From NCBI GenBank assembly GCA_900545165.1, contig UQYA01000002.1, positions 2,543 through 66,542 of the forward strand: a stretch of DNA of 64,000 bases, given 5' to 3'. The notes beneath the pieces were generated by a model. It saw only the letters and a program-made list of their open reading frames with translations. It did no database searches and was not told the DNA's origin. Every line of letters starts with the position of its first letter. Within the stretch, counting starts at the first letter, position 1. This document shows, one piece after another, positions 2,908 to 53,160 of the stretch. The DNA comes from an uncultured Collinsella sp. (GTDB taxonomy: Bacteria; Actinomycetota; Coriobacteriia; Coriobacteriales; Coriobacteriaceae). Position numbers and translations under genes: made by a program.

Positions 2908-4293
2908 CTAGTCGATCTTGTTGTTGGTCAGACCGGCGCGGAACACGGTGGCGTCGCCATCGGCCTGGCTCGGATCGTAGAGGTTCAGGGCAGCCACATA
3001 CATGGCGGCAGCGGTGACCAGGTCGTCCTTGTAGGTGACCTCGTTGGGAGCGTGAGCCTGAGACTCGGCACCCGGGCCAAAGCCGACGCAGGGGATGCCA
3101 TAGCGGCCCTGGATGGAGACGCAGTTCGTGGAGAAGGTCCACTTGTCGCACAGCGGACGACCGGTGCGCTTGTCCATGCTGGGCTCGCAGCCGATGCGCT
3201 CGTCACCGAACATGGCCTTGTGGGCGTCGACGAGGGCCTTGACGTGCGGAGCGGTCTCCTTGTTGATCCACGTGGGGAAGTAAGCCTCGGTCTCGTAGAC
3301 CTCGCCGGTCCAGGACGGACGGTCGTACATGTACATGGAGACCTTCACGTCGTCGCCGTACTTCTTGGCGGCCGGCAGGTTGCGGATCTCGTCCAGGCAG
3401 GACTCCCAGGTCTCGCCGGCGGTCATGCGACGGTCGATGGAGATGGCGCAGGAATCGGCCACGGCGCAGCGGCTGGGGCTGGTGTAGAAGATCTGGCTGA
3501 CGGTGCAGGTGCCGCGGCCCAGGAAGCGGGCATCCTCGTAGTGCTCGGGGTTGTACTTGGGGTCGAGCATCTTGACGAGACCCTTGATGTCGGTCGACTC
3601 GTCGCAGCCGTTGTTGTTGAGGGCGCGGACGTCAGCGATGATGTCAGCCATCTTGTAGATGGCGTTGTCGCCGCGGTCGGGAGCGGAGCCGTGGCAGGAG
3701 GTACCGTGAACGTCGACGCGGATCTCCATACGGCCGCGGTGACCGCGATAGATGCCGCCGTCGGTGGGCTCAGTGGAAATGACAAACTCGGGCTTAATGC
3801 CGTCCTTGTTGTAGATGTACTGCCAGCACATGCCGTCGCAGTCCTCTTCCTGGACGGTGCCGACGACCATGATCTTGTAGCCCTCGGGGATGAGGCCCAT
3901 GTCCTTCATCATCTTGGCAGCATAGGTAGCAGAAGCCATGCCGCCCTCCTGGTCGGAGCCGCCGCGGCCGTAGATGATCTCGTCGGTCTCGTAGCCCTCA
4001 TAGGGATCGGCGTCCCAGTTCTCGATGTTGCCGATGCCGACGGTGTCGATGTGGGAGTCGATGGCGATAATCTTGTCGCCCTCGCCCATAAAGCCCATAA
4101 CGTTGCCCAGGCCGTCGACCTTGACCTCGTCATAGCCGAGGCTCTCCATCTCGGCCTTGATGCAGGCGACAACCTCGCCCTCCTCGCAGGACTCAGAGGG
4201 GTGAGAGATCATGGCGCGCAGAAAGCGAGTCATATCAGCACGATGGGACTCAGCAGCAGCCTTGATAGCGTCGAAATCGAGTTCCTTAGTCAT
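2908..4293 (-). CDS. ygeY: YgeY-type M20 family metallo-hydrolase
   Basis: M20 peptidase motifs are present: [29 protein letters not shown]. Start placed at ATG 4293 (GAAAGG 9 nt upstream); the track starts it at TTG 4302. Confidence 0.85.
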
Positions 4294-4397
4294 AACAGTC
4301 AACCTTTCTACAAGGGTTTACCTACAGATAGATATTTCAGATAGATCACTTGTGCCAAGCAGCGTGAGGTCGAGTACCCCACGAGCAAGTGGACGTA

Positions 4398-4516
4398 GGG
4401 TGGCGGAGCATATGTTTGCTCCGTCGCGAGTTCCGCACGCAAAGGAAAGCACTTAATGTGCTTTCCGTCTTGCGCAGGACTGTTCGAGCAGGGAGCAAAC
4501 ATATGCTCCGCCACCC
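4398..4516. repeat. Large palindromic element, copy 1: 25-bp perfect inverted arms around a 69-nt core
   Basis: Arm GGGTGGCGGAGCATATGTTTGCTCC (4398-4422) is the exact reverse complement of 4492-4516. The core 4423-4491 contains the hairpin GGAAAGCAC-TTAAT-GTGCTTTCC. The core recurs in inverted orientation at 52382-52450. Confidence 0.85.
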
Positions 4517-4532
4517 GGACAGGTCAGGCCTG

Positions 4533-5747
4533 CTAGCAGGTGGGGTACTCGCCCTCCCAGACGATGCGACGGTACTGATCCGGATCCGTGTCGCCCTCGG
4601 TGGAGAAGCAGAGCACGGAGCTCGTCTTGTCCAGGCCGATGAGCTCCTTGAGCTCGGCGTACTCGGGATCGAGCATGAGGGTCTCGACCAGGCCGGTGGT
4701 CACCGCGCCGGACTCGCCGGAGATGACGCGCGGGTCGCCCTTCTCGGGAGCGCCCAGGGTGCGCATGCCGCGAGCGGTGACCCAGTCGGGGCAGGACACG
4801 AAGGCGGTAGCGTGGTTGCGCAGGATATCCCAGCCCAGGATGTTGGGCTCGCCGCAGCACAGACCGGCCATGATGGAGGGCATGTCGCCGTCCACGATGC
4901 GCGGATCGCCGTCGCCGGCGGCAGCGCCCTTGTACAGGCAGGCGGCAGGCGCGCACTCAACCACGACGAAGGTGGGCGGGTTATCGGGATACAGGTTGGT
5001 GAAGTAGCCCACCACGGCGCCGGCGAGCGAACCCACGCCAGCCTGGACAAACACGTGCGTCGGGCGGTTGATGGCCATCTCGCGCAGCTGCTCGGCAGCC
5101 TCGGAAGCCATGGTGCCGTAACCCTCCATGATCCAGGACGGGATCTTCTCGTAGCCCTCCCAGGCGGTGTCCTGAACGATGACGCCACGCTCGCAGGCGT
5201 CAGCCTCGGCGGCAGCCATGCGCACGCACTCGTCGTAGTTGACCTCTTCGATGGTCACCGTGGCGCCCTCGGCGGCGATGTTATCGAAGCGGGGCTTGGT
5301 GGAACCCTTGGGCATGTGCACGACGGCCTTCTGGCCCAGCTTGTTGGCAGCCCATGCCACGCCGCGGCCATGGTTGCCGTCGGTAGCGGTAAAGAAGGTG
5401 GCCTGGCCAAAGTCCTCGGCCAGCTGATCGGAGGTCAGGTAATCGAAGGTGCAGTCGGCAACGTCCTTGCCGGTCTCGTCGGCAATATAGTTGGCCATGG
5501 CAAACGAGCCGCCCAGGACCTTAAAGGCGTTGAGGCCAAAGCGATAGCTCTCGTCCTTAACGCACAGGTTGGACAGGCCCAGGCGCGCGGCCTGGCCGTC
5601 CAGGCGGGCAAGCGGAGTGACGGTGTACTGGGGGAACGACTGGTGGAAGGCACGGGCCTTCTTCACGTGGTCGAGACTCATGATTCCCAAGTGCTTGTCA
5701 TCGCTCTTGGGCATCGTGTTGCTCGCCCACTGGATCTTATCGGCCAT
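4533..5747 (-). CDS. dpaL: diaminopropionate ammonia-lyase (PLP-dependent, YgeX/DpaL)
   Basis: 404-aa ORF. The segment KDESYRFGLNAFKVLGG contains the PLP-lysine context of the Trp-synthase-beta-like fold. AAGGAG lies 8 nt before ATG 5747. Confidence 0.85.
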   Translation of the reverse strand: MADKIQWASNTMPKSDDKHLGIMSLDHVKKARAFHQSFPQYTVTPLARLDGQAARLGLSNLCVKDESYRFGLNAFKVLGGSFAMANYIADETGKDVADCTFDYLTSDQLAEDFGQATFFTATDGNHGRGVAWAANKLGQKAVVHMPKGSTKPRFDNIAAEGATVTIEEVNYDECVRMAAAEADACERGVIVQDTAWEGYEKIPSWIMEGYGTMASEAAEQLREMAINRPTHVFVQAGVGSLAGAVVGYFTNLYPDNPPTFVVVECAPAACLYKGAAAGDGDPRIVDGDMPSIMAGLCCGEPNILGWDILRNHATAFVSCPDWVTARGMRTLGAPEKGDPRVISGESGAVTTGLVETLMLDPEYAELKELIGLDKTSSVLCFSTEGDTDPDQYRRIVWEGEYPTC

Positions 5748-7836: not shown

Positions 7837-7981
7837 TCCGCGCGCGCTGATAGACTCCATCGTGCCCGCAAGGAGCGGGCGCGTTTTATCCAGAGTCGGG
7901 GTAGAGAGTTGGCTCCACGATCCCGACGCCAACCGGCCAAGAGGCACGGTGGCCCTGCCAACATCGATGAAAGGAGTCCGT

Positions 7982-51453: not shown

Positions 51454-52065
51454 TTAGGCCATACGGATGGCGACGAGACCATTCTTGGCACCCGGGACAG
51501 CGCCCTTGACCAAGATGAGGTTCTGCTCGGCATCGATGCGGACAACGGAAAGGTTCTTAACGGTAACGCGCTCGTTACCCATGTGACCGGCCATCTTGAC
51601 GCCCTTGAGGACGCGCGCAGGATAGGCGCACTGACCGATAGAACCGGGGTGACGCTGGAAGTGAGAACCATGCGTCATAGGACCGCGGCGCTGACCCCAG
51701 CGCTTGATGCGACCCTGGAAGCCCTTACCCTTGGAGGTACCGATGACGTCGACCTTCTCGACATCAGCGAAATCAGCGACGGTGACGACCTCGCCGACCT
51801 TGTGCTCCTCGCCGTTCTCGACGCGGACCTCACGAAGGAAGCGGACAGGCTCGACGCCGGCCTTGGCGAAGTGACCAGCCATGGGCTTGTTCACGTTCTT
51901 GGCCTTGATGTCGCCGAAACCGATCTGGACGGCGTCATAGCCGTCGGTTGCCTGAGTTTTAACCTGCGAGACAGCGCAGGGGCCAGCCTGGATGACCGTG
52001 ACGGGAACGACGTTGTCGTCCTCGTCCCAAACCTGGGTCATGCCAATCTTGCGGCCGAGAATCAT
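51454..52065 (-). CDS. rplC: 50S ribosomal protein L3
   Basis: [14 protein letters not shown].... ATG 52065 is preferred; the track starts at TTG 52074. Confidence 0.9.
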
Positions 52066-52333
52066 GCTGATCAAGATATGATCCCAACTCTCGCGTGGTC
52101 TTGGGACAATGCGTACACCACCGAGCGTACGCCCCTAGAGGACCACTACTTACACGACGTGCTCCCCAGCCTTGTATTTCGCCCGGACTACCTGACAACC
52201 CTATTAAGCAGGCATTTTGTCCAGCCAGAATACTCCCCTGGTTTCACACAGCTGTTTAGTATACACGGCTGCGGGCGTATCCATCGAGATTCATATTTCA
52301 CTCACATTGTTTACGCAGGTAAAGTGCGTGGCA

Positions 52334-52498
52334 CGTCTCCCGAGCTTTGGCGGAGGGGCGGGGCCGAGAGTAGTTAAAGTTGCTGCTCTACAGTCCTGCT
52401 CACGACGGAGAGCACATTAAGTGCTCTCCTGTTCGTGCGGAACTCGCGACAACCTTAACTACTCTCGGCCCCGCCCCTCCGCCAAAGCTCGGGAGACG
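52334..52498. repeat. Large palindromic element, copy 2: 48-bp inverted arms (1 mismatch) around the same 69-nt core, inverted relative to copy 1
   Basis: 52334-52381 pairs with 52451-52498. The core 52382-52450 is the reverse complement of 4423-4491 at about 60 of 69 positions by hand alignment. The central hairpin is GGAGAGCAC-ATTAA-GTGCTCTCC. Confidence 0.85.
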
Positions 52499-52533
52499 AC
52501 ACGTTGATGTCTGCTAAACCTTGCTCGCTCAGG

Positions 52534-53160
52534 CTAATGACTTTGTTGGGGATCGATGATTTGCTGCAAGGTGAACTTGGATTGAGACGTGTCGCCCTCT
52601 TCTCCCGACTTTTCCTCATCGAAATCGAAGATCATGATGGCGCAGTTGGGGAGTTTTGTTGGGAGCTCAAAGTCCTCTGGGGCTGCAGCCTTGATGAATT
52701 GGCGGCTGGCGCTGCCGTGGCTTACTGCTAGGAGGGTTTCTATGCCCTCGGCGCCCATGAGATTGGTGAGGGTGTCTACCATGCGCTCTTGCAGCGCGCG
52801 GCTTCCTTCTCCTCCGAAGGGGACCAGGTCCTCGCCTGGATCCCAGACGTCGGTGGGTAGAGCGTCGTGCGGGCCTTCTTCGAAGGTGCCGTAGCAGCGC
52901 TCGATGATGCCTTCGCAGGGCTCGACTGCTGCGTCCGGGCCGAGGAGCTCGAATGCGACGAGCTGAGCTGTGTCCATGGCTCGGCCTAAGGGCGAAGAGA
53001 CCACTTTGTCGGGGACAACGTCGTGGCCCTTGAGCCATGCGGCTGCCATTCCCGCTTGTTTGCGGCCCAGGTCGGTCAGCGGTGAATCGCAGCGGCCCTG
53101 GACCAGCTTTTTGACGTTGAACTCCGTCTGACCGTGACGGAGTAGATACAGCTTCTTCAT
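52534..53160 (-). CDS. histidine phosphatase (phosphoglycerate-mutase-like) family protein
   Basis: LYLLRHGQTEFN carries the RHG motif. 208 aa. Confidence 0.8.
   Translation of the reverse strand: MKKLYLLRHGQTEFNVKKLVQGRCDSPLTDLGRKQAGMAAAWLKGHDVVPDKVVSSPLGRAMDTAQLVAFELLGPDAAVEPCEGIIERCYGTFEEGPHDALPTDVWDPGEDLVPFGGEGSRALQERMVDTLTNLMGAEGIETLLAVSHGSASRQFIKAAAPEDFELPTKLPNCAIMIFDFDEEKSGEEGDTSQSKFTLQQIIDPQQSH

What the first reader, a model, noticed from the sequence alone, without database searches (positions are those of the whole stretch)
4370..4550. Palindromic element copy 1: conserved 69-nt core inside 25-bp perfect arms, with an outer decayed inverted copy of the dpaL 3' end
- **Structure:** between dpaL and ygeY, arms 4398-4422 and 4492-4516 are exact reverse complements. 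They flank a core with the hairpin GGAAAGCAC-TTAAT-GTGCTTTCC.
- **Outer copy:** outside the arms, CGAGTACCCCAC (4370-4381) is the inverted copy of the last dpaL codons (4539-4550). The sequence between is a degraded inverted copy.
- **Inference:** it looks as if the flank on one side of the core was copied, inverted, onto the other side.
- **Relation to copy 2:** the same core occurs at 52382-52450 with completely different arms. So the arms are not classic terminal inverted repeats of a MITE.
- **RNA consequence:** in the dpaL-ygeY mRNA this would form a ~120-nt near-perfect hairpin, which could be an RNase III site, a stabiliser or an attenuator.
Basis: seen in the sequence. Interest (0 to 1): 0.65.

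Follow-up and report, generated by a model that had tools for sequence, protein, structure and literature searches.

The report
Self-palindromizing repeat family in Collinsella
The dpaL-ygeY palindrome is one copy of an undescribed short repeat of the gut bacterium Collinsella: a conserved 69-base core sits between inverted arms that differ from place to place, and DNA copying keeps each pair of arms matched, showing how genomes build long hairpins.

Summary
Copy 1 has perfect 25-nt arms (4398-4422 / 4492-4516) around a 69-nt core. A decayed outer inverted copy of the dpaL 3' end lies at 4366-4389 / 4533-4556. Copy 2 has the same core on the minus strand (52382-52450) inside unrelated 49-nt arms.

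The core is a Collinsella aerofaciens-group repeat:
- It occupies at least 15-18 intergenic loci.
- One 0.9-Mb record holds 12 places.
- It is absent from Rfam, phages and the searched literature.

Population comparisons across about 200 genomes show:
- Arms diverge at about the neutral rate but stay 98% Watson-Crick complementary.
- Mismatches show no G:U bias.
- Two-sided variants often fall at neighbouring arm positions, and some alleles show graded outward extension of the palindrome.
- Presence/absence alleles, one core inversion and element-centred rearrangements occur.

Best reading: a non-autonomous, REP/MITE-like palindromic repeat. Its arms are homogenised and extended by intramolecular template switching or gene conversion, which recruits flanking DNA, including the dpaL end. 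How the core reaches new loci is unresolved. An RNA role is plausible (a hairpin of -120 kcal/mol in the operon transcript) but untested. I rate this a new variant of a known kind, of moderate interest.

The parts
4423..4491 (+). Copy 1 core: 69 nt, asymmetric quasi-palindrome, GTCGCGAGTTCCGCACG...CAGGACTGTTCGAGCAG
   Evidence: nhmmer E 8e-23; the same core is found in more than 120 Collinsella loci
4444..4466 (+). Central 9-bp hairpin with TTAAT loop inside the core
   Evidence: stem variants in other copies are complementary on both sides
4398..4422 (.). Copy 1 inner arm on the ygeY side; includes GGTGGCGGAGC, the complement of ancestral-looking spacer GCTCCGCCACC
   Evidence: 100% complementary to 4492-4516; allele and outgroup comparison
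4492..4516 (.). Copy 1 inner arm on the dpaL side, the exact reverse complement of 4398-4422
4366..4389 (.). Decayed inverted copy of the dpaL 3' end (outer arm, non-coding side)
   Evidence: 83% complementary to 4533-4556; conserved in C and C' alleles
4533..4556 (-). dpaL stop codon plus last 7 codons: the donor side of the outer arm
   Evidence: Pfam PALP for ORF 4533-5747
2908..4302 (-). ygeY-like M20 peptidase gene downstream of the element
52382..52450 (-). Copy 2 core
   Evidence: nhmmer E 8e-24
52334..52382 (.). Copy 2 arm on the rplC side, 49 nt
52450..52498 (.). Copy 2 arm on the histidine phosphatase side, 49 nt, 98% complementary
   Evidence: four allelic arm types at this locus
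52534..53160 (-). Histidine phosphatase gene; its stop codon lies 36 nt from the copy 2 palindrome

Best explanation
What it is: one copy of a previously undescribed, non-autonomous palindromic repeat family of the Collinsella aerofaciens species complex. The conserved part is an about 69-nt asymmetric quasi-palindrome, in many copies with about 9 nt of inner inverted repeat (TTAAGTTT / AAACTTAA).

How the arms arise (inferred):
- The long, locus-specific, near-perfect arms are not transposase-binding ends. They arise and are kept up after arrival by intramolecular DNA copying between the two arms.
- The copying is replication template switching (quasi-palindrome correction) or repair of the hairpin heteroduplex.
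- Each event overwrites a stretch of one arm or flank with the reverse complement of the other.
- As a result, arms drift in sequence at about the neutral rate but stay Watson-Crick complementary, and the palindrome creeps outward until it meets selection. At copy 1 it took in the last 7 codons and stop codon of dpaL, with the coding side as donor.
- The same kind of event can symmetrise the core or invert it.

Other processes:
- Ectopic conversion between copies can explain why cores stay alike.
- The palindromes are also fragile: deletion alleles with 3-6 nt microhomology, hybrid alleles and rearrangement junctions are centred on them.

What is shown and what is inferred:
- Shown: the family, the concerted arm evolution, the extension series, the polymorphism and the inversion.
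- Inferred: template switching as the molecular route. The lack of a dedicated cellular function is also an inference.
- Probable side effects in RNA are a very stable hairpin inside the dpaL-ygeY transcript, with possible processing or pausing.
- How the core gets to a new locus is not resolved.
For: Family:
- The core 17-mer hits more than 120 stretches, nearly all Collinsella, in at least 15 locus clusters.
- One 0.9-Mb C. aerofaciens record holds 12 places.
- There is no Rfam match, no phage match and no paper containing the sequence.

The arms behave as DNA, not RNA:
- In 146 unique arm pairs, 4044 positions are paired and 74 mismatched.
- Mismatches split 29 G:T type, 22 A:C type and 23 transversion type.

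Concerted evolution at the copy 2 locus (58 genomes):
- Arm divergence is 0.18-0.20, against 0.20 at third codon positions of the neighbouring gene.
- Left-arm and right-arm distances correlate at 0.84.
- Within-copy complementarity is 0.946.

Point variants:
- 18 are two-sided and keep the pair, against 47 that are one-sided.
- Several two-sided variants fall at neighbouring arm positions.

Direct examples of copying:
- Graded outward replacement series: AAGCCCAGGCGACTCCACG, then AAGCTCGGGAGACTCCACG (L270, an isolate), then AAGCTCGGGAGACGACACG (L276).
- The core right half is converted to a perfect complement of the left half in L045.
- The dpaL 3' end is copied in inverted form.
- Arm segment GCTCCGCCACC resembles outgroup spacer CCCCGCCACACC.
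- Inversion: type B (core +) and type C (core -) dpaL alleles share the unusual inner arm GCTCC / GGAGC. Both types occur in isolates.
- Ectopic conversion: the central stem is swapped as a block between otherwise identical alleles, L214 against L233.

Fragility:
- Deletion-type alleles: L268 and the X18 contig, and dpaL type A.
- Hybrid arms: L241 (an isolate) and L175.
- Junctions: L203/L231/L253, L187 and L210.
- About a fifth of hits lie at contig ends.

Literature: template switching is an established route to perfect and maintained hairpins (PMC8794818; PMC5453318).
Against: - No read-level or experimental evidence for template switching in this organism. Selection for pairing combined with ordinary mutation could give two-sided changes, though it does not predict extension tracts or the lack of wobble bias.
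- The core is about 3 times more conserved than neutral sites (0.063 against 0.20). Its asymmetries persist in nearly all copies. That could mean a sequence-specific function or a recognising protein rather than ectopic conversion alone.
- The 5' arm is always G-rich, which this model does not explain.
- The spread to new loci is unexplained. No clean empty site, target duplication or parent element was found. A 72-nt segment in the type B allele has no source elsewhere.
- Some supporting alleles come from metagenome bins, where a repeated palindrome can be misassembled.
Confidence: 0.6

Rival explanations
1. A structured RNA, either cis-regulatory or a small RNA. The conserved core would be the functional part and the arms a long closing helix kept by selection for base pairing.
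For: - The predicted hairpins are extremely stable: -120.3 kcal/mol (z -12.5) for copy 1 in mRNA sense and -146 kcal/mol (z -17.5) for copy 2.
- Complementary changes occur in the central stem and in the arms.
- The core is more conserved than neutral sites.
- RNA-seq contigs run through a copy at the thrB locus.
Against: - No Rfam family matches, even at E 10.
- Arm mismatches show no G:U excess on either strand (29 against 22).
- Arms of 25-49 perfect Watson-Crick pairs are far more than an RNA helix needs.
- Copies lie in tandem (both senses), convergent and divergent contexts. One locus carries the core in either orientation.
- The secondary structure outside the 9-bp stem is not kept between core variants (my reading).
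- Copy 2 lies upstream of where rplC operon contig coverage begins.
Confidence: 0.12
2. An ordinary MITE moved in trans by a transposase. It would be about 85 nt with short ends GTTTG...CAAAC and a palindromic TTAA (YTAR-type) target duplication. The long arms would be later palindromisation of the flanks.
For: - It is multi-copy, intergenic and polymorphic in presence.
- About half of the loci have TTAAG at positions -8 to -4 on both sides of the core.
- This is compatible with the same template-switch maintenance of the arms.
Against: - No parent insertion sequence was seen. Every left end had its right end within 70 nt.
- The candidate inverted ends are only 5-9 nt long.
- Many loci lack TTAA, including copy 1.
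- Clusters 1 and 7 share an about 190-nt unit that includes outer arm segments, so more than the putative MITE was copied.
- No empty site with a single TTAA was found.
- The IS200/IS605 element seen nearby has unrelated hairpins.
Confidence: 0.18
3. An invertible DNA switch (inverton). The arms would be the crossover sites and the 69-nt core would flip to change expression of neighbouring genes.
For: - A short segment is flanked by inverted repeats.
- The core is found in both orientations at the dpaL locus, type B against type C.
- It is also found in both orientations at the copy 2 locus in L056, L064 and L247.
Against: - The arms differ at every locus, so no common recombinase site exists beyond about 9 nt.
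- At 69 bp, the segment is, from general knowledge, far shorter than known invertible segments.
- The consensus scan found no promoter-like site in either element region.
- No recombinase gene adjoins either copy among the neighbours checked.
- The flipped copy 2 alleles are all metagenome bins with 49-nt arms, close to assembler k-mer sizes, and could be artefacts.
- Orientation is fixed within each allele lineage.
Confidence: 0.05
4. A REPIN-like element mobilised by a RAYT or IS200-family single-strand transposase that recognises the hairpin.
For: - It has hairpin architecture and an intergenic position near gene 3' ends.
- The arms evolve as a unit, as described for REPINs (PMC3116915).
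- An IS200/IS605 tnpA gene exists in the genome.
Against: - In REPINs the conserved repeated part is the arm (the REP sequence). Here the arms are locus-specific and the centre is conserved.
- The tnpA gene seen is flanked by unrelated hairpins.
- No gene flanked by cores was seen in about 300 loci.
Confidence: 0.05

Closest known systems
REP / BIME / REPIN elements of proteobacteria
   Same: - Short, multi-copy, intergenic palindromic repeats, often just after gene 3' ends.
- They form hairpins.
- The two halves co-evolve.
- They are non-autonomous.
   Different: - In REPINs the repeated, conserved unit is the arm, and a RAYT gene is associated.
- Here the conserved unit is the centre, the arms are locus-specific, and no RAYT association was found.
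Correia (NEMIS), ERIC and YPAL-type palindromic MITEs
   Same: - Size of about 100-170 bp.
- They sit inside transcription units and fold into long RNA hairpins.
- Presence and absence vary between strains.
   Different: - Those families have family-wide terminal inverted repeats and TA target duplications.
- This family shares only the core and about 9 nt of arm. No direct target duplication was found.
Quasi-palindrome correction / template-switch mutation (Ripley model; Loytynoja and Goldman 2017; Monttinen and Loytynoja 2022)
   Same: - Multi-base two-sided changes that keep the pairing.
- Conversion of imperfect to perfect inverted repeats.
- Creation of new reverse-complement copies of flanking sequence.
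- Inversion of the spacer (PMC8794818).
   Different: - That literature describes a mutation mechanism acting on any inverted repeat.
- Here the mechanism is tied to a dispersed repeat family. It acts repeatedly on the same elements over population time scales and produces arms of 25-58 nt.
Small hairpin-loop inversions between inverted repeats in plastid genomes
   Same: A short spacer is found in both orientations between perfect short inverted repeats in related lineages, as for the B and C alleles of the dpaL locus.
   Different: - The organelle cases are isolated hairpins, not copies of a dispersed conserved core.
- This comparison rests on my own knowledge and was not tested here.

Membership tests
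MITE (transposase-mobilised) | Terminal inverted repeats conserved among copies | tested here: not met
   Only about 9 inner nt (TTAAGTTT) are semi-conserved. The outer arms of different loci are no more alike than reversed controls (local score 12.15 against 11.78; sequences).
MITE (transposase-mobilised) | Direct target-site duplication flanking the element | tested here: inconclusive
   The flanks are inverted, not direct. A palindromic TTAA next to the inner arm in about half of the loci could hide a duplication. The three empty/filled comparisons show replaced sequence and 3-6 nt microhomology, not a clean duplication.
MITE (transposase-mobilised) | A related full-length insertion sequence with the same ends | tested here: not met
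   Among 127 left-end hits, every untruncated copy had the right end within 70 nt. This is a sample of 120 stretches, not whole genomes.
MITE (transposase-mobilised) | Multi-copy, intergenic, polymorphic in presence | tested here: met
REPIN / REP | Conserved REP sequence forming both arms of the hairpin | tested here: not met
   The arms are locus-specific and the conserved part is the centre.
REPIN / REP | Single-copy RAYT (Y1 transposase) gene flanked by the repeats | tested here: inconclusive
   The one IS200/IS605 tnpA examined has unrelated flanking hairpins. Whole genomes were not scanned.
Inverton (site-specific invertible switch) | Both orientations coexisting within a clonal population | not testable with these tools
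   Only assembled contigs of public runs were available, with no raw reads. Contigs built with k=31 cannot phase a core between arms of 25-49 nt.
Inverton (site-specific invertible switch) | A common recombinase site in the inverted repeats and an invertase gene | tested here: not met
   The arms differ between loci. Neighbouring genes of both copies are metabolic or ribosomal. The rest of the window was not screened.
Known RNA family (Rfam 15) | A covariance-model match | tested here: not met
   In the whole window, the only match at gathering score is a SAM riboswitch elsewhere. For 4300-4620 at E up to 10, the only hits are spurious miRNA-precursor hairpins and one frameshift-element hit.
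Intrinsic terminator | A short G+C-rich stem-loop followed by a T run | tested here: not met
   No terminator-like site in 4100-4800 or 51900-52800. The loop is 69 nt and there is no T tract after the arms.
Template-switch (quasi-palindrome) conversion product | Multi-base changes that are exact reverse complements of nearby sequence and raise arm identity | tested here: met
   The extension series L270 and L276, the symmetrised L045 core, two-sided variants at neighbouring arm positions, and the dpaL-end copy.

The most novel reading that the evidence does not exclude
The core is a new kind of selfish DNA that has no fixed ends and needs no transposase.
- It is a fork-stalling quasi-palindrome that spreads to nearby or micro-homologous sites by replication template switching.
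- It then manufactures its own inverted repeats out of whatever flanks it, in effect an inverted target-site duplication that keeps growing.
- A variant of this reading is that a dedicated hairpin-specific nuclease or binding protein recognises the conserved asymmetric core and triggers these events.
- The shared 190-nt unit of clusters 1 and 7, 2.1 kb apart with a T-run microhomology at the junction, fits this reading. So does the absence of a parent element.
Probability: 0.2. Interest if true: 0.75.

Novelty: new variant of a known kind. Interest (0 to 1): 0.5.

Why it matters
- **A natural record of hairpin formation.** Hundreds of sequenced Collinsella genomes show long perfect hairpins being created, kept perfect and extended by DNA copying rather than by selection on RNA pairing. 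This bears on how much weight covariation in stems deserves as evidence for RNA function.
- **Consequences for Collinsella genomics.** The family explains recurrent contig breaks, chimeric bins and structural variants next to core operons (rpoBC/rpsL, rplC, thrB, dpaL-ygeY). It also gives polymorphic markers for strain typing.
- **Possible effect on gene expression.** Filled and empty alleles put a hairpin of -120 kcal/mol inside some operon transcripts and not others.
- **If transposase-independent spread were confirmed,** it would be a new mode of repeat propagation in bacteria.

Tried and rejected
- **Rfam.** Nothing was found at gathering score for the window or at E up to 10 for the element.
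- **Phages, plasmids, viral contigs.** The phage collection gave no hit. The plasmid collection gave only a mislabelled 0.9-Mb Collinsella replicon. IMG/VR gave two contigs with ordinary copies.
- **Literature.** Searches for Collinsella with palindromes, invertons or MITEs, and for the core sequence itself, found nothing.
- **IS200/IS605 as mobiliser.** Its end hairpins are unrelated to the core.
- **Promoter and terminator scans.** Nothing was found at either copy.
- **Hypermutation of the arms.** Rejected, because arm divergence equals third-codon-position divergence at the copy 2 locus.
- **Arms as diverged family-wide inverted repeats.** There is no clear homology beyond G/C-rich low complexity.
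- **The 72-nt extra segment of the type B allele as a templated insertion from elsewhere.** It occurs only at that locus.
- **Polarity of empty against filled alleles from a tree.** Flanking genes show no structure by allele type because the population recombines. Outgroups were used instead.
- **Read-level tests of flipping and RNA processing.** Every run found was held as contigs only.
- **A short peptide in the core (MCFPSCAGL).** Rejected, because the frame is not kept in the other core variants (my reading).
- **Full census of the 0.9-Mb record.** Abandoned after one 50-kb chunk as poor value for the calls spent.
Full report
**1. The observation**

Copy 1:
- The region between the PLP-dependent dpaL-like gene (4533-5747, minus strand) and the M20 peptidase ygeY-like gene (2908-4302, minus strand) holds two exact 25-nt reverse-complement arms. 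They lie at 4398-4422 and 4492-4516, 69 nt apart.
- The centre carries the hairpin GGAAAGCAC-TTAAT-GTGCTTTCC at 4444-4466.
- Outside the arms, 4366-4389 is 83% complementary to 4533-4556. That stretch is the dpaL stop codon plus its last 7 codons.
The correct coordinates are 4371-4382 and 4540-4551.

Copy 2:
- The same core lies on the minus strand at 52382-52450. It sits inside unrelated 49-nt arms that are 98% complementary.
- A profile of the core finds only these two copies in the window.

By my own calculation, none of this is expected by chance.

**2. What it belongs to**

All but three chance hits are Collinsella or Coriobacteriaceae.
- Clustering by outer flanks gives at least 15 loci.
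- One 0.9-Mb C. aerofaciens record has 12 places.
- About a fifth of hits sit at contig ends.
- The anatomy is constant. A 68-69-nt core runs from GTCGCG to GAGCAG, plus one base. The arms start exactly at its edges.
- The perfect arm run ranges from 4 to 48 nt. With a few mismatches allowed, the median arm extent is 32 nt.
- Many loci share an inner TTAAGTTT / AAACTTAA. Beyond that the arms of different loci are not detectably homologous.
- All copies are intergenic. They occur in tandem (both senses), convergent and divergent contexts. The palindrome edge is often 34-70 nt from a stop codon.
- Copy 2 lies 36 nt after the histidine phosphatase gene and upstream of the rplC leader.
- Nothing matches in Rfam, in phage records or in the literature searched.

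**3. How the arms behave**

- Across 146 distinct arm pairs, 98.2% of positions are Watson-Crick paired. The 74 mismatches split 29 G:T type, 22 A:C type and 23 transversion type. There is no wobble bias on either strand.
- At the copy 2 locus (58 genomes), orthologous arms differ by 0.18-0.20 per site. That equals third codon positions of the adjacent gene (0.20).
- At the same locus, the two arms of one copy stay 94.6% complementary, and left-arm and right-arm distances correlate at 0.84.
- Among recent point variants, 18 changed both arms and kept the pair. Several of these fall at neighbouring arm positions. A further 47 changed one arm only.
- Independent mutation would give essentially no two-sided changes.
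- A graded series at the copy 2 locus shows the right outer flank being overwritten by the complement of the left arm over increasing lengths. The steps are most type iii alleles, then L270, then L276.
- In one copy (L045) the right half of the core itself has been made a perfect complement of the left half.
- These are the signatures of quasi-palindrome correction by template switching (PMC8794818). Repair of a hairpin heteroduplex would look the same.

**4. Copy 1 in the population**

The dpaL-ygeY spacer was compared in 80 genomes, plus 25 more found through the type B segment. Three allele classes appear.

- **Type A (about 60%).** It is 76-84 nt, has no core, and carries the small hairpin GGCGGAG-TAAATAGGTATCG-CTCCGCC.
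- **Type B.** The core is in the dpaL sense. The arms are GGCGGAGCGATACCTATTTGCTCC / GGAG(T/C)AAATAGGTATCGCTCCGCC. There is an extra 72-nt segment found nowhere else.
- **Type C and C' (the window is type C).** The core is in the opposite sense. The arms are GGGTGGCGGAGCATATGTTTGCTCC or GGAGGC.G.CGGAGGACTTT.CTCC, and the inverted dpaL-end copy is present.

What these alleles show:
- B and C share the unusual inner arm GCTCC / GGAGC. They therefore most likely descend from one arrival, followed by an inversion of the core between its arms.
- Both orientations occur in isolate genomes.
- Flanking genes differ by about 3% with no structure by allele, so a tree cannot give polarity.

Outgroups:
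- More distant Collinsella have 64-149-nt spacers without the core. These are C. tanakaei (86% protein identity) and two others (88% and 93%). The element is therefore a gain.
- One outgroup has CCCCGCCACACC where types A, B and C have CTCCGCCACC. This part of the arm is therefore probably old spacer, and its partner on the other side a later inverted copy.
- The dpaL end is obviously the original of the outer pair. Copying has therefore gone in both directions.

Type A could be the pre-insertion state. It could also be a scar left by deletion between GCGG(AG) repeats. I cannot decide between the two.

**5. Other empty/filled pairs**

- At the copy 2 locus, one isolate (L268) and an RNA-seq contig of another strain lack the element. 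They read TTTAGCA|CACTGGGAACG, keep the outer end of a type ii arm, and have GCA microhomology. This looks like a deletion.
- At cluster 7, an about 190-nt unit follows an intrinsic terminator in four genomes. In four others 12 nt of different sequence stand there instead.
- The same unit, including outer arm segments, lies 2.1 kb away at cluster 1. More than the core can therefore be copied.
- This fits a nearby template switch at a T-run better than a transposase with fixed ends. That is an inference only.

**6. Instability**

- Hybrid alleles with non-complementary arms exist: L241 (an isolate), L175 and L225.
- One recurrent junction lies inside the left arm in three independent assemblies (L203, L231, L253).
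- Chimeric joins between loci also occur: L187, L076 and L111.
- Some of these may be misassemblies in metagenome bins.
- The flipped copy 2 alleles (L056, L064, L247) are all bins with 49-nt arms. I treat them as unconfirmed.
- The central stem is swapped as a block between otherwise identical alleles, L214 against L233. This shows exchange between copies. It could account for the core's low divergence (0.063) without any function.

**7. RNA**

- In mRNA sense, copy 1 folds at -120.3 kcal/mol (z -12.5). Copy 2 folds at -146 kcal/mol (z -17.5).
- RNA-seq contigs of a related strain run through the thrB-locus copy. The elements can therefore be transcribed.
- That strain has the empty dpaL spacer, and only contigs were available. 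Processing could not be examined.
- No feature of the sequences requires an RNA function.

**8. Verdict**

- The element is best filed as a new variant of the palindromic intergenic repeat kind (REP, Correia and ERIC-like elements).
- It is distinguished by a conserved centre with locus-specific arms that are made and maintained by inter-arm copying.
- Open points: the route of spread, the G-rich 5' arm bias, and why the core's asymmetries persist.

Noticed in passing
window 7883-7973 (+): SAM riboswitch (RF00162), 45.1 bits, just above the gathering score. It is the only Rfam match in the window.
   Followed up: no
window 52075-52533; L283 23423-38411: rplC has a 460-nt non-coding leader and no rpsJ upstream. 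In C. aerofaciens TSDC17.2-1.1, rpsJ and rplC are separated by about 14 kb. That stretch holds an IS200/IS605 tnpA, birA, a fab/acc cluster, PTS EIIC, a CDF transporter and the histidine phosphatase gene. The S10 operon is therefore split, and copy 2 sits at the rplC-side junction.
   Followed up: partly
L045 4800-7100; L283 17938-20319: An ECF sigma factor and DUF4179 gene pair lies between rpoC and rpsL. It is bounded by a 30-nt inverted repeat (TGCCAATAAGGGACAGGTTTATTTTGG) and, in some genomes, by a copy of the palindromic unit at each end in direct orientation.
   Followed up: partly
NZ_OY725717.1 (L283, L289): This PLSDB record is labelled 'plasmid 6' and is 899,693 bp. It carries rpoBC, ribosomal protein operons, recA and ftsK, so it is evidently chromosomal sequence.
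   Followed up: no
L136, L151, L159, L195, L235: Genome bins named Bacteroidaceae, Bulleidia, Sodaliphilus, Ruminococcus and Alloprevotella carry Collinsella dpaL or histidine phosphatase loci at 92-100% protein identity. This is probably bin contamination.
   Followed up: no
L153 3716-3789 and 24 other loci (L290-L314): A 72-nt segment starting with the hairpin GCGGCGC-AAC-GCGCCGC is present only in the type B dpaL-ygeY spacer. Its origin is unknown.
   Followed up: yes
all copies: The 5' arm of the palindrome is G-rich (45% G, 23% C) and the 3' arm C-rich, on both strands and at all loci. This is unexplained.
   Followed up: partly
L286 2749-2897: The outgroup dpaL-ygeY spacer (149 nt) has a tandem CCTCACCGCGAG repeat and a CGCGAGAGTTTCTTTCGCGCAGG stretch that faintly recalls the core.
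   Followed up: no
L281 12740-12940; L282 1-150: Two IMG/VR 'viral' contigs carry an ordinary copy of the element, with an ATCGCGAG core variant and arms of about 34 nt. Whether these contigs are prophages or chromosomal was not checked.
   Followed up: no
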